Assembly: GCA_034530875.2 (NCBI GenBank)
Contig: JAVRCJ020000028.1
Location: 1-36,736, forward strand
Length of the DNA stretch: 36,736 bases
Origin: Nostoc sp. DedSLP01
GTDB taxonomy: Bacteria > Cyanobacteriota > Cyanobacteriia > Cyanobacteriales > Nostocaceae
Reading direction: 5' to 3'
Below the pieces are notes generated by a model. The model searched no databases and was not told the DNA's origin. It saw nothing but the letters and a program-made list of their open reading frames with translations. Position numbers and translations under genes: made by a program. Positions 7,838-14,476 of this stretch are shown one piece after another. The number at the start of each line of letters is the position of its first letter. Position 1 is the first letter of the stretch.

Positions 7838-10195
7838 ATGACTTCAAGCAACCAACCTTTTGAGTTGCCGAGTTTTTATGTACCTTGGCCGGCACGGCTA
7901 AACCCAAATCTGGAAGCGGCACGGGTACATTCTAAAGCTTGGGCTTATGAAATGGGGATTTTGGGCGGGGAAGAGGGATCGGAAGATTATGGGATTTGGG
8001 ATGAACGTAAGTTCGATGCCCATGACTATGCATTATTGTGTGCATATACTCATCCAGATGCCGATGAACCTATGCTCAATCTGGTAACTGACTGGTATGT
8101 TTGGGTATTTTTCTTCGACGATCACTTCCTCGATCTTTACAAGCGTACCCAAGATACGGCGGGGGCTAAGAAGTACCTGAATGGGTTACCAGCATTTATG
8201 CCCGTGCAGCCCCAAGAAACGCCGCCAGAACCTACTAACGCCGTAGAACGGGGTTTAGTAGACCTCTGGGCCCGTACCATCCCCAATGCTTCCCAAGACT
8301 GGGTAATCCGATTTACTGAGAGTACTATCAATCTTCTCAAAGAATCTCTCTGGGAACTCGCTAATATTAGCCAGCATCGAGTCGCTAACCCCGTTGAGTA
8401 CATTGAAATGCGCCGTAAGGTAGGGGGAGCGCCTTGGTCAGCCAACCTAGTAGAACACGCGGTTAGGGCAGAAATTCCGGCTGCGATCGCCCGCACTCGA
8501 CCCTTGCGTGTCCTCAAAGACACCTTTTCTGACGGCGTACATCTGCGAAATGACATCTTCTCCTATCAAAGAGAAGTAGAAGAAGAAGGGGAAAATGCTA
8601 ACTGTATCTTGGTCTTAGAACGATTCCTCAATGTGAGTACCCAAGAGGCGGCCAACCATACTAACGACTTACTCACATCTCGGGTGCAACAGTTCGAGAA
8701 CACCTTTGTCACTGAGCTTCCTTCCTTGTTTGAGGAATATGGTCTGACTCCTGATGAGCGTCTGAAAGTCTTCCTATATGCCAAAGGACTTCAGGATTGG
8801 CAGTCGGGGGGTCATGAGTGGCACATGCGATCGAGCCGCTACATGAACAAGACATCAGACAAATCTTCCATAGCAAGCTTGTTTTTAGGCGGCCCCACTG
8901 GACTAGGCACATCTGCATCCCGTTTAGGAGCCTTATACGATAGTTTGGGACTAAAACGCTTCCAAAGCTTTACATATATTCCCTATCAGCCTGTAGGGCC
9001 AGTAAGCTTGCCTGAGTTTTATATGCCCTTCTCCACCAGTTTGAATCCCCATCTACAAGAGGCTCGACGGCATTCTAAAGAATGGGCGCGTCAAATGGGA
9101 ATGCTGGACACACTGCCAGGGATGCCCAGCATTTACATCTGGGATGACCACAAATTCGATGTGGCTGACGTAGCTTTATGCGGTGCTTATATTCATCCCA
9201 ATGGTAAGAGTGATGAGTTGAACATAACGGCTTGTTGGCTAGTGTGGGGAACTTATGCTGATGACTACTTCCCGGCACTGTATGGTTATAGCCGCAACAT
9301 GGCAGGGGCGAAACTCTTTAATGCTCGGTTATCCGCCTTTATGCCCCTCGATGGGAGTCCCCCTCCCGAAGCGACTAACCCAGTCGAACGAGGTTTAGGG
9401 GATATTTGGGCAAGGACGGCAGGGCCGATGACAGCTAATGCTCGTCGTCTGTTCCGGCGTGCGATCGAAGATATGACGGAAAGTTGGTTATGGGAACTAG
9501 CTAACCAAATCCAAAATCGGATTCCCGACCCAATCGACTATGTGGAAATGCGCCGTAAGACCTTTGGCTCCGATTTAACCATGAGCCTGTCTCGACTTTC
9601 CCAAGGGGACGAAATTCCACCAGAGATCTTCGCCACTCGAACCATGCAGGGAATTGATAATTCAGCCGCCGACTTCGCCTGTTTGACGAATGATGTTTTC
9701 TCTTATCAGAAAGAAATCGAATTTGAGGGCGAGATTAACAACGGTGTGCTGGCGGTTCAGAATTTCCTGAACTGCGATATTCCTCATGCTGTCGCAGTTG
9801 TTAACGACCTGATGACCTCCCGCGCCCTTGAGTTTCAACATATTGTTGCTACTGAAGTCCCTGTCTTGTGCGATGATTTCGGCCTGGATACAAATGCCCG
9901 AAAGAAACTGTACGGATACATCAAGAAACTAGAGCAGTGGATGTGTGGAGTACTCAAATGGCACAGGGCAGTAGACCGCTATAAGGAATTTGAATTGCGG
10001 AATAACTCAAACGAAAAACGGTTACTCCAACAGCCCACAGGCTCAGGCAATATCGCCAGCCAAAGTACGCCAAGTGTCGCTCAGCAAACAACTCAAACCA
10101 ATGTTCAGCCAGTAGTGCAGAACTTCCCGAGCGGCCCGACAGGGTTAGGGACTTCAGGTATCAAAATCGGCTCGTTGTTAAGAACAAAAGATTAG
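7838..10195 (+). CDS. geoA: Bifunctional germacradienol/geosmin synthase; probable encapsulin cargo
   Basis: Two class I terpene cyclase domains: N-terminal DDHFLD + NDIFSYQRE + SRY, C-terminal DDYFP + NDVFSYQKE + [11 protein letters not shown] at aa 352-359 and 766-773. Confidence 0.97.
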
Positions 10196-10265
10196 CTCAA
10201 TCTGAGTCGGTCGTCAGGTGAAACTTGATTTTTTTTCTAGTAACTAAAAAGTAGAGGATTGAATT

Positions 10266-11675
10266 GTGACTTATTCTAGCGATCGCAATATCGATGCAGA
10301 AAATCAGCAGCCCCACTTAACCTTAAGTACAGCAGCGGCGCGTAATTTGGCGACAACGGCCAAATCTGCACCGCAGACCCAGGAAATTACATCCCGGTGG
10401 TTATTAAAGTTGTTGCCTTTTGTACAAACTAAAGGTGGCACTTTTCGAGTCAACCGTCGCTTGAGTTATACCGTAGGTGATGGGCGAGTCAGTTTCACCA
10501 ATACTGGAGCAGCAGTACAGGTAATTCCTCAAGAACTAACTGAATTGCCCTTACTGCGCGGATTTAGCGAAGTTGATGTCTTGACAGGCTTAGCAAACCA
10601 GTTTCAGCAGCAAGAGTACGCCCCAGACGATGTAATCGTTGAGATTGGTCAGCCCGCCGATCGCATAATTCTAATTGCTCGTGGTAAGGTGAACAAAATT
10701 GGTGTTGGCAAGTATGGCGAAGAGATCGTCTACGATGTGCTAGCTGACGGCGACCATTTCGGCGATGAAACTGTGGCCCAGTCCGAGGACACCTGGCAGT
10801 ACACCCTCAAAGCAATTACCAGAACCATAGTTTTGTCATTGCCCCAACAAGCGTTTGAGAGGCTCGTCGGTCAGTCCGAGGCACTGCGAACTCATGTCGA
10901 ACAGTTCCGCACTCGTCTGAGTCAGCCACAGACTCCCGAAGGTGAAGCCGCCATTCAACTAGCAGCCAATCATCCCCAAGAGACTCCCTTAGCAGGAACT
11001 TTCGCTGATTACGAACTTGCACCCCGCGAATACGAATTGAGCATCGCTCAAACGGTGTTGCGAGTCAGTACTCGCGTTGCTGACCTGTACAACGAACCGT
11101 ACAACCAGACAGAAGAACAACTGCGACTAACTATCGAGTCATTACGGGAACGTCAGGAATACGAATTACTCAACAACCGCGAATTCGGATTGCTGCACAA
11201 CGCCGACTTGAAACAACGCATTTATAGCCGCACTGGGGCACCCACACCAGACGACCTCGACGAACTGCTGACCACAGTATGGAAAGAGCCGTCATTCTTC
11301 TTAGCTCACCCCCGCACCATTGCAGCCATAGGCCGCGAAGCCAACCGCCAAGGCGTTTATCCACAAAGTATAGATATCAACGGCAATCAAGTTACAGCTT
11401 GGCGCGGCGTACCTATCTTTCCTTCCAATAAGATTCCCATCACCAATAACCGCACCAGTTCTGTGCTTTTGCTGCGCACAGGTTTGGAAAAACAAGGCGT
11501 CATCGGCTTACATCAAACTGGTATCCCCGATGAGTACCAACCAAGTTTGTCTGTGCGCTTCATGGGTATCGATGAAAAGGCGATTATTTCTTACTTGGTT
11601 ACTGCCTACTACTCAGCAGCCGTCCTGATTCCTGACGCGCTCGGCATCCTTGAAGATGTGGAAATCGGGCGCTAA
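10266..11675 (+). CDS. cnb1: Family 2B encapsulin shell protein with cNMP-binding-type insertion (copy 1)
   Basis: 469 aa; [29 protein letters not shown]-arm, central cNMP-type domain (GDHFGD), [42 protein letters not shown] start with AGAGGA RBS. Confidence 0.92.
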
Positions 11676-11682
11676 GTGATTG

Positions 11683-11806
11683 AATTTTAGATTTTGGATT
11701 TTGGATTTTGGATTGAAAAATTCAAAATTCAAAATTTCAACACGTTTGTGATTTATACTCGCTCCCCGACGAGCAAGCTACGTGGAACAAATCTAAAATC
11801 CAAAAT
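11683..11806. repeat. Heptamer (GATTTTG/CAAAATC) tandem repeats in inverted arrangement with an internal small dispersed repeat
   Basis: (GATTTTG)n at about 11690-11714, AATCTAAAATCCAAAAT at about 11790-11806, and TACTCGC...AGCAAGCTA at 11756-11780, related to 24428-24455. Confidence 0.75.
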
Positions 11807-13237: not shown

Positions 13238-13271
13238 GCCGAATATTACTTACTTAAGACGAAACCCGATC

Positions 13272-13495
13272 GGGGTAGGGGGTAGGGTGTAGGGTGTGGG
13301 GTGTAGGAAAAAAATCAAGAAAAGTAAATATGAGTGCGAACATAAGTAATACCGACGTTGCTCAGTGAAAATATGAACTTGTTTCACGCAGAGAGTAAGA
13401 GTTTGAGAGATAGAATTTTTGACTTTCATACCTTAAAACAAGGGGTTTCTTTCTAAGGAGGCGCTTATTTCCCTACACCCCACACCCTACACCCT
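13272..13495. repeat. Inverted GGGTGTA-type heptamer repeat pair enclosing a deleted MITE copy
   Basis: Perfect 24-bp inverted repeat 13284-13307 / 13472-13495; 13354-13433 is the reverse complement of the 1855-2011 MITE lacking its middle and one TIR. Confidence 0.8.
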
Positions 13496-13555
13496 TTTTC
13501 ATGCATGGTTGTGAAAATTGTTTGATTGAGACTGCTTTATATACGAGAGTTTTAT

Positions 13556-14476
13556 ATGCCAAAATCAATGTTGCAAACTACTACAGACACTAGCTTTAAT
13601 TTAAAAGCTTATTTATCAGAACGGCAGGCTTTAGTTGAAGCAGAACTCGATCGCTCAATTACTGTGGCTTATCCAGAAATTCTCTACGAGTCTATGCGGT
13701 ATTCTCTATTAGCTGGAGGAAAACGCTTACGCCCAATTCTGTGTTTAGCAAGTTGCGAACTCTGTGGTGGCACATTAGAGATGGCAATGCCTACTGCCTG
13801 CGCTTTAGAAATGTGTCATACCTTTTCTCTGATGCATGATGATTTGCCTGCTATGGATAACGATGATTATCGGCGAGGTAGGCTAACTAACCATAAAGTT
13901 TATGGTGAAAATATTGCAATTTTAGCTGGCGATGCACTTTTAGCTTACGCCTTTGAGTTTTTAATCGTGCAAACAAAACAAGTTCCGGCAGAGCACCTGT
14001 TGCAAGTCGTTGTTAAGTTAAGCCACACTATGGCAGCAACAGGTTTAGTCGGCGGTCAAGTTGCTGATTTGCAATCTGAGGGTTTACAGAATATCGATCT
14101 CAAAACCCTCGACTTTATTCATACTCATAAAACTGGAGCTTTGTTAGAAACCTCAGTTCTCTCAGGGGCGATGTTAACAGGAGCGAGTGATTCTGTTTTA
14201 CAAAGACTTTCTGTTTATGCTCGTCACATTGGTCTAGCTTTTCAAATTGTAGATGATGTGCTTGATATTACTGGAACTCAAGAAGAACTAGGTAAAACTC
14301 CGGGTAAAGACCAAAAAGCACAGAAAGTAACTTACCCCAGTTTATGGGGTATTGAAGAATCAAAACGCAAAAGTCAAGAATTAGTTGACCTAGCCAAAGG
14401 TGAAGTTGCTGGTTTTGGAGATAAGGCACAACCTCTAATGGCGATCGCAGATTATATCGTTGCAAGAACGCATTAA
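13556..14476 (+). CDS. Short-chain trans-prenyltransferase, CrtE paralog, probable farnesyl diphosphate synthase
   Basis: [50 protein letters not shown]; Phe at -5 from the first Asp-rich motif. ATG 13556 preferred over TTG 13526. Confidence 0.9.

What the first reader, a model, noticed from the sequence alone, without database searches (positions are those of the whole stretch)
7838..14476. Four-gene geosmin locus that reads as a terpene-making encapsulin nanocompartment with its own precursor supply
Seen: co-oriented geoA, two paralogous 469-aa cnb genes and a prenyltransferase. Known: the geoA-cnb-cnb order is typical of cyanobacterial geosmin producers, the cnb products were long labelled Crp-like regulators but belong to Family 2B encapsulins, and Family 2B encapsulation has been shown for a Streptomyces 2-methylisoborneol synthase. 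Neither cnb protein shows an obvious Crp-type HTH. Inference: GeoA is packaged in a Cnb1/Cnb2 shell and fed FPP by the fourth gene. I am not aware of an experimentally characterised cyanobacterial geosmin encapsulin with a linked FPP synthase, but cannot check that here.
Basis: partly seen in the sequence, partly recalled or inferred. Interest (0 to 1): 0.9.

Follow-up and report, generated by a model that had tools for sequence, protein, structure and literature searches.

The report
Geosmin shell cluster with precursor enzyme
This cyanobacterial gene cluster encodes the earthy-smell enzyme geosmin synthase and a two-part protein shell that very probably encloses it, an arrangement already shown experimentally in another bacterium, plus an optional fourth gene that looks like a carotenoid-precursor enzyme retuned to make the shorter building block geosmin needs.

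Summary
geoA (785 aa) and two 469-aa Family 2B encapsulin genes pass curated NCBIfam cut-offs. GeoA carries the cargo-loading peptide GPTGLGTS twice, in predicted disordered segments. The core idea is already published: Fazal et al. 2026 (PMC13739066) showed GeoA inside a two-component 2B shell in Myxococcus xanthus and named cyanobacteria as carriers.

What remains less known is the fourth gene. It is a CrtE paralogue, 64-66% identical to the housekeeping crtE 11 kb away, with Phe instead of Met five residues before the first aspartate-rich motif. This matches the bacterial FPP-synthase signature. All 13 Phe copies form one clade under purifying selection, and 11 follow cnb2 directly. It is optional: 8 of 36 geoA-bearing family genomes have it linked. 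It lacks loading features, so it is probably a free supplier, not cargo. Its product is untested.

The cassette is also mosaic: geoA comes from one lineage and both shell genes from another. This scan noted the shell and the Phe paralogue before, on other genomes. Verdict: a known system with a plausible, testable accessory variant.

The parts
7838..10195 (+). geoA, two-domain geosmin (germacradienol/geosmin) synthase, predicted encapsulin cargo
   Evidence: NF041168 1222.5 bits against cut-off 1200; two PF19086 domains; metal-binding motifs [26 protein letters not shown] and two WxxxxxRY motifs; model pTM 0.81
8891..8914 (+). Cargo-loading peptide in the interdomain linker, GPTGLGTS (aa 352-359)
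   Evidence: lies in low-confidence segment 337-383; same sequence as the minimal peptide tested in PMC13739066
10031..10054 (+). Degenerate loading-peptide copy at the usual C-terminal position (QPTGSGNI, aa 732-739)
   Evidence: Aligns with GPTGLGTS of relatives
10133..10156 (+). Intact C-terminal loading peptide GPTGLGTS (aa 766-773) in a lineage-specific tail extension of about 35 aa
   Evidence: lies in low-confidence segment 724-785
10266..11675 (+). cnb1, Family 2B encapsulin shell protein 1 (cNMP-binding-fold insertion plus HK97-type shell part)
   Evidence: NF041163 745.6 bits against cut-off 400; PDB 9BJE E 1.1e-195, 9BHU E 1.8e-180; Trp177 invariant in 26 of 26 aligned homologues
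11828..13237 (+). cnb2, Family 2B encapsulin shell protein 2
   Evidence: NF041163 758.8 bits against cut-off 400; 71% identical to Cnb1
13556..14476 (+). CrtE paralogue, predicted farnesyl diphosphate synthase (ORF open from TTG 13526; ATG 13556 is the probable start)
   Evidence: NF045685 517 against 460 and NF045485 FPPsyn 365.8 against 275; below the encapsulin-cargo prenyltransferase cut-off, NF041169 253 against 450; dN/dS 0.10-0.11 in 4 of 4 comparisons
13823..13825 (+). TTT codon: Phe five residues before the first aspartate-rich motif (Met in housekeeping CrtE)
   Evidence: Phe in 13 of 13 clade members and none of 35 other aligned copies; TTT in all 14 loci read, one of them a duplicate
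13838..13858 (+). First aspartate-rich motif DDLPAMD (type II, with the two-residue insertion)
11680..11807 (.). Heptamer tandem repeats in inverted orientation between cnb1 and cnb2 (dispersed genomic repeat)
   Evidence: a 16-nt stretch of the unit occurs 41 times in the genome
13272..13495 (.). Heptamer inverted repeats between cnb2 and the prenyltransferase gene; a second set lies at 14542-14657
   Evidence: 31-nt arms, 94% complementary; a 17-nt stretch occurs 18 times in the genome
25402..26331 (-). Housekeeping crtE (Met at -5) in the folD-crtE-DUF212 context; the internal comparator, not part of the cluster
   Evidence: the same context with Met in 23 of 23 folD-linked copies read

Best explanation
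Cnb1 and Cnb2 co-assemble into a T=1 Family 2B encapsulin shell with outward cNMP-binding-fold domains. GeoA is tethered inside through its linker and C-terminal GPTGLGTS peptides, which protects the fragile linker from proteolysis and retains germacradienol for the second half-reaction. These steps were shown for the M. xanthus orthologous system and are inferred here. The fourth gene encodes a free cytoplasmic CrtE paralogue whose Phe floor stops chain elongation at C15. It raises the FPP pool in a cell whose housekeeping CrtE makes mostly GGPP, and FPP enters through the large two-fold pores. This step is inferred from sequence rules and published mutagenesis. The gene is an optional booster, gained once as a clade and often lost. 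Odds: shell with GeoA cargo about 0.9; mainly-FPP product about 0.7; same transcript about 0.55.
For: Family cut-offs passed for all four genes. Close solved relatives are Family 2B shells. Both loading peptides sit in predicted disorder and match the tested peptide. These are the only 2B shell genes found in the genome. Phe at -5 with a DDxxxxD motif fits the type II FPPS rule (F/Y)X3H-DDX3-hydrophobic-D rather than the type II GGPPS rule (M/A)SX2H (Satta 2022 Table 1). An aromatic residue at the equivalent Met87 turned Synechococcus 7002 CrtE from GGPP to FPP. The 13 Phe copies are one clade, 100/100, and 11 follow cnb2. In the 201-genome family sample, 9 of 10 Phe-type genomes have geoA, against 36 of 201 overall. 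ATG to TTT needs two base changes, and the gene is under purifying selection.
Against: No experiment exists on these proteins. Feng 2020 is internally inconsistent: its abstract says M87F, while its methods and results say M87Y, so the exact Met-to-Phe change may not have been tested. 27 of 36 geoA-bearing family genomes show no Phe-type copy, including close relatives; L019 (GeoA 96% identical) has only one CrtE match in its genome. One Phe-type copy occurs without geoA (G430) and one is unlinked (G543). A 288-318 nt gap holding a 31-nt inverted repeat separates cnb2 from the fourth gene. Synechocystis CrtE already releases some FPP (Satta 2022, abstract opening and passages; the FPP detail is partly recalled). 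The Cnb1 model was unreliable in the shell part (mean pLDDT 51.7).
Confidence: 0.65

Rival explanations
1. Shell and cargo as above, but the fourth gene is a GGPP or mixed-product synthase that only adds prenyl-diphosphate flux.
For: It scores best against the CrtE (GGPP synthase) model. Its sister copies in other biosynthetic clusters mostly keep Met. Type I GGPP synthases carry Phe in this region and still make GGPP (Satta Table 1).
Against: Those type I enzymes have the short DDxxD motif, whereas this protein has DDxxxxD. Phe is fixed only in the geosmin-linked clade. GeoA uses FPP.
Confidence: 0.18
2. The fourth gene is a hitchhiker: it travels with the cassette but serves other FPP users such as hopanoid synthesis or other sesquiterpene synthases.
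For: It is absent from 27 of 36 geoA genomes, and two Phe copies are not beside geoA. The genome has two other single-domain terpene-synthase-like genes, on C38 and C67.
Against: The position directly after cnb2, same strand, gap 53-383 nt, is kept in 11 of 11 linked loci, and these span divergent GeoA and shell lineages.
Confidence: 0.1
3. The prenyltransferase is co-encapsulated with GeoA, making a two-enzyme nanoreactor.
For: Family 2B systems with polyprenyl transferase cargo are proposed in PMC8346489, and the gene is adjacent.
Against: No GPxGxG[T/N] peptide in any of 48 prenyltransferases checked. Its N-terminus is as short as that of housekeeping CrtE (about 48-58 against 50 residues before YSLL), whereas proposed cargo enzymes have 50-100 extra disordered residues. 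It is below the NF041169 cargo cut-off.
Confidence: 0.04
4. Cnb1 and Cnb2 are Crp-like transcription regulators, as older papers label them, and form no shell.
For: The historical annotation (PMC7251104; PDB molecule names). They do contain a cNMP-binding fold.
Against: No helix-turn-helix; the C-terminal 250 residues are encapsulin shell family; about 60% or more identity to solved shells (inferred from the alignments); Trp at the position that appears to match Sg Enc W176, linked to loss of cAMP binding (mapping by position).
Confidence: 0.03

Closest known systems
Myxococcus xanthus GeoA / MxEnc1 / MxEnc2 two-component Family 2B encapsulin (Fazal et al. 2026, PMC13739066)
   Same: geoA followed by two 2B shell genes; linker and C-terminal GPTGLGTS peptides in disordered regions; paralogues of similar divergence (63% there, 71% here).
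   Different: Cyanobacterial host, untested. A duplicated C-terminal peptide with the usual copy decayed. A linked CrtE-derived prenyltransferase. That paper classified GeoA neighbourhoods by presence of a polyprenyl transferase gene (supplement passage; figure not seen) but in the text I read does not discuss cyanobacterial ones or chain length.
Streptomyces griseus Sg Enc with 2-MIB synthase (PMC11550324, PDB 9BHU) and Streptomyces lydicus two-component shell (PDB 9BJE, 9BIX)
   Same: Same shell family and domain layout.
   Different: One-component shell with a monoterpene cargo (S. griseus); the cargo of the S. lydicus system was not checked here.
Cyanobacterial CrtE, type II GGPP synthase (PDB 6SXL/6SXN, 7MXZ/7MY6; PMC7261888, PMC9796789)
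   Same: Same family, intact FARM and SARM, 64-66% identical to the genome's own CrtE.
   Different: Phe replaces Met at -5, mimicking the engineered FPP-making variant; it is an extra copy in a secondary-metabolite cluster.
Extra crtE copies in cyanobacterial terpenoid clusters (putative tolypodiol cluster, PMC8073705; clusters with HpiC1-like cyclases or WelO5-like halogenases)
   Same: They form the sister group of the Phe clade (25 rows, 100/99) and sit beside dxs, ispG, ispH, ubiA, chorismate lyase, HpiC1-like or WelO5-like genes.
   Different: They keep Met (14 of 15; one has Ala) and serve other pathways.
Cyanobacterial 2-MIB cnbA/cnbB of Pseudanabaena foetida (PMC12159092)
   Same: Cyanobacterial Cnb pair associated with intracellular compartments in heterologous hosts (abstract).
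   Different: 2-MIB pathway; the abstract calls the compartments unknown.

Membership tests
Family 2B encapsulin | HK97-type encapsulin shell domain | tested here: met
   By sequence: NF041163 above cut-off for both proteins, PF19307, and E 1e-180 to 1e-195 to cryo-EM shells. The model of the shell part was low-confidence, although the top five Foldseek hits were encapsulins.
Family 2B encapsulin | Inserted cNMP-binding-fold domain, no helix-turn-helix | tested here: met
   PF00027 at aa 116-203/204; the CRP model covers only its binding domain; the region is confidently modelled.
Family 2B encapsulin | Self-assembly into a T=1 shell, mixed when two genes are present | not testable with these tools
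   Shown for M. xanthus; needs TEM or cryo-EM here.
Family 2B terpene-cyclase cargo (geosmin synthase type) | Two cyclase domains with metal-binding motifs | tested here: met
Family 2B terpene-cyclase cargo (geosmin synthase type) | GPTGLGTS(AAR) peptide in the disordered linker and C-terminus | tested here: met
   aa 352 and 766, inside pLDDT<50 segments 337-383 and 724-785.
Family 2B terpene-cyclase cargo (geosmin synthase type) | Physical encapsulation and geosmin formation | not testable with these tools
   Needs co-purification and GC-MS.
Type II (bacterial) FPP synthase | (F/Y)X3H before a DDX3-hydrophobic-D motif | tested here: met
   [12 protein letters not shown] against Satta Table 1; NF045485 above cut-off.
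Type II (bacterial) FPP synthase | FPP as main product | not testable with these tools
   Needs an enzyme assay.
CrtE type II GGPP synthase | (M/A)SX2H chain-length motif | tested here: not met
   Phe at that position, although the whole-protein CrtE cut-off is passed.
Family 2B polyprenyl-transferase cargo | Disordered N-terminal extension of 50-100 aa; NF041169 cut-off | tested here: not met
   No extension relative to housekeeping CrtE; 253 bits against 450.

The most novel reading that the evidence does not exclude
Filamentous cyanobacteria evolved a dedicated FPP synthase from an accessory CrtE lineage by fixing Met-to-Phe at the chain-length floor, and attached it to the geosmin encapsulin cassette as a supply module. 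This would be an exception to the generalisation that cyanobacteria have a single short-chain prenyltransferase making GGPP. In this genome the cassette is also a natural shell swap, with a GeoA of one lineage joined to a shell pair of another, which implies the short loading peptide makes cargo and shell interchangeable.
Probability: 0.6. Interest if true: 0.5.

Novelty: new variant of a known kind. Interest (0 to 1): 0.36.

Why it matters
Geosmin from cyanobacteria taints drinking water and farmed fish (general knowledge). Encapsulation is now established for the M. xanthus system, so this locus mainly extends it to cyanobacteria. The fourth gene would explain how some producers obtain FPP when their housekeeping CrtE runs on to GGPP, could mark high-yield strains, and would be a native cyanobacterial FPP synthase for sesquiterpene engineering. 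The mosaic origin offers a natural test of whether loading peptides alone set shell-cargo compatibility.

Tried and rejected
RNA runs: four runs of one study hold a relative about 94% identical. Contigs cover geoA into cnb1 (7513-11107 in one piece), the rest of cnb1 and cnb2, but only an 82-nt, 80%-alike piece of the fourth gene. These are contigs of another strain that may lack the gene, so they say nothing on co-transcription.

Promoter and terminator scan: 8 promoter-like sites against 13.1 expected, and 9 terminator-like sites against 6.7 +/- 2.6. None lies on the + strand between the four genes. Uninformative.

Cnb1 structure prediction: the shell part was low-confidence with a 26-sequence alignment, so fold evidence rests on sequence.

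Met-type prenyltransferases near geoA in L106 and L033 are the housekeeping crtE, each the only match in its genome, so they were not counted as linked.

The tree used 48 rows because a de-duplication step dropped 5 non-Phe rows by mistake. The clean recount gives 53 distinct copies, 13 of them Phe. Fisher p 6.7e-7 for Phe-type against geoA overstates the case because kin are not independent.

Paper searches for a cyanobacterial geosmin-linked FPP synthase or CrtE paralogue, for shell-gene mosaicism and for a direct Met-to-Phe test returned none that describes it in the listings and passages read. The library lacks most subscription papers. PMC12271159 held nothing relevant. No complex prediction was run, since a pass would mostly reflect likeness to solved shells.
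Full report
Observation. The four co-oriented ORFs are present at the stated coordinates. The first three are richer in G+C (48-50%, GC3 46-50%) than the genome (40.9%), while the fourth gene is 40.5% with GC3 28%. The genome's other relatives of these genes, by tblastn, are two distant single-domain terpene-synthase-like genes, the housekeeping crtE in this same window, and one distant prenyltransferase on C6; no other 2B shell gene was found.

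Shell proteins. Both pass the Family 2B model NF041163 (746 and 759 bits, cut-off 400) and consist of a cNMP-binding domain and the encapsulin shell family PF19307. The CRP model covers only the binding domain, so there is no helix-turn-helix. The best solved relatives are 9BJE, 9BIX and 9BHU, which are Family 2B shells of Streptomyces lydicus and S. griseus (titles). Trp177 is invariant in 26 aligned homologues and appears to match Sg Enc W176, which PMC11550324 links to loss of cAMP binding (passages). The AlphaFold model was confident only for the binding domain, so the fold claim rests on sequence.

Cargo. GeoA passes NF041168 and has intact metal-binding motifs in both domains. GPTGLGTS occurs at aa 352 and 766, inside the only long low-confidence segments of a good model (337-383 and 724-785, pTM 0.81). 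The alignment shows that this lineage duplicated the C-terminal peptide, and that the window's copy at the usual position (aa 732) has decayed.

What is in print. PMC13739066 (parts 1-4 of 7 read: introduction, results, conclusion; one supplement searched; figures not seen) shows that M. xanthus GeoA is loaded into a mixed MxEnc1/MxEnc2 T=1 shell through the same two peptides, is protected from proteolysis and gives more geosmin. It states that most myxobacterial and cyanobacterial geoA genes are co-encoded with shell genes, and it classified neighbourhoods by the presence of a polyprenyl transferase. PMC8346489 (passages) had predicted the motif in 2021. PMC7251104 and PMC4558948 (passages) describe the three-gene cyanobacterial cluster. 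PMC12159092 (abstract) links cyanobacterial 2-MIB Cnb proteins to compartments.

Fourth gene. It aligns at 64% with the housekeeping CrtE (66% by tblastn), but reads HTFSLMHDD where the housekeeping copy reads [12 protein letters not shown]9796789 (passages) gives (F/Y)X3H as the type II FPP-synthase signature and (M/A)SX2H for type II GGPP synthases, and says cyanobacteria generally have one such enzyme. PMC7261888 (passages) found that an aromatic residue at Met87 turns CrtE into an FPP synthase; its abstract says M87F but its methods and results say M87Y.

Distribution of the fourth gene. In 201 genomes of the family, 25 had two or more CrtE-like matches. I read the extra copy in 24 of them and every match better than about 1e-135. 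Ten genomes have a Phe copy. geoA was found in 36 of 201. Eight of these have the Phe copy directly after cnb2, one (G543) has it elsewhere, and 27 show none; four of those 27 loci end at a contig edge or were not fetched in full, and were judged partly by their CrtE match count. One Phe copy (G430) has no geoA. In a 401-genome phylum sample, 18 had geoA and 4 of these had the linked Phe copy; the three other strong hits were Met-type. Across all loci, 53 distinct copies split as 13 Phe (11 after cnb2), 39 Met and 1 Ala.

Evolution of the fourth gene. The Phe copies form one clade (100/100), grouped with Met-type extra copies from other terpenoid and indole-alkaloid clusters (compare PMC8073705, passages) rather than with housekeeping CrtE. 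dN/dS is 0.10-0.11, like the housekeeping gene at 0.12. It has no loading peptide or N-terminal extension and misses the cargo cut-off, so it most likely acts outside the shell.

Mosaic origin. GeoA of the window, L019 and L020 groups with one lineage (G152, G378, G234, G260, G162, G455 and others; 89-92% identical). Their Cnb1 and Cnb2 group with the Nostoc punctiforme-type lineage (86-89%), and are only 66-71% identical to the shells of the first lineage (quick trees of 46 and 86 rows). On 20-row subsets the AU test rejects the congruent alternatives (p 1.3e-4, 9e-31 and 6.6e-5); the groups were named after seeing the trees. Nucleotide identity switches at the geoA/cnb1 boundary, near 10000-10300.

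Mechanism. Shown here by sequence: family identities, peptides, the Phe residue, linkage, selection and mosaicism. Inferred from M. xanthus: assembly, loading and protection. Inferred from chain-length rules: FPP product. Unknown: the ligand of the binding domains, and co-transcription of the fourth gene (the RNA data and the promoter scan were uninformative).

Verdict. A correct finding of a known system in an untested host, with an optional predicted FPP synthase that I did not find described in the papers searched. Earlier notes of this scan reached the same readings on other genomes; I re-tested their claims here and do not count them as support. Interest 0.36.

Noticed in passing
window:7838-13237: The cassette is mosaic: geoA from one lineage and both shell genes from another, with the switch near 10000-10300.
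   Followed up: yes
L021:1362-3587: This GeoA looks chimeric within the gene: 87-92% nucleotide identity to the window over roughly its first 800 nt, then 71-80%.
   Followed up: partly
L106 and L033: The geosmin cassette sits beside the housekeeping folD-crtE-DUF212 genes in L106, and between crtE and folD in L033; in the window it is 11 kb away. Possibly a recurring association.
   Followed up: partly
L146-L163: Extra Met-type crtE copies lie in clusters with duplicated MEP-pathway genes, UbiA, chorismate lyase, Pyr4-like or HpiC1-like cyclases, Rieske proteins and a WelO5-like halogenase; several may be undescribed terpenoid clusters.
   Followed up: partly
L162:3919-8808: A single-domain terpene synthase, a P450 and a Met-type extra CrtE with MEP genes: a candidate diterpene cluster.
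   Followed up: no
L145:9187-10089: A Phe-type copy in a genome where geoA was not found, beside AAA/WD40 genes; possibly left over after loss of the cassette.
   Followed up: partly
L033:2556-5060 and L112:9839-12073: A divergent GeoA-like group (45-50% identity) with altered motifs and a worn linker peptide, still followed by two shell genes; it may make another product.
   Followed up: no
L100:9078-10431: The second shell gene appears split by a frameshift in this genome.
   Followed up: no
window:14712-16979: A fusion of CBM20, a GDSL-lipase-like domain and DUF1796, convergent with the cluster.
   Followed up: no
window:3919-6645: A divergently oriented membrane PAS-GGDEF-EAL gene upstream; not seen at 50% identity or more beside geoA in the loci.
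   Followed up: partly
window:7461-7582: An imperfect repeat-rich stretch (TTAACTGTC-like units) in the 1.2 kb region upstream of geoA.
   Followed up: no
window:17272-17838: A small beta-trefoil (ricin-B-type) lectin-domain protein.
   Followed up: no
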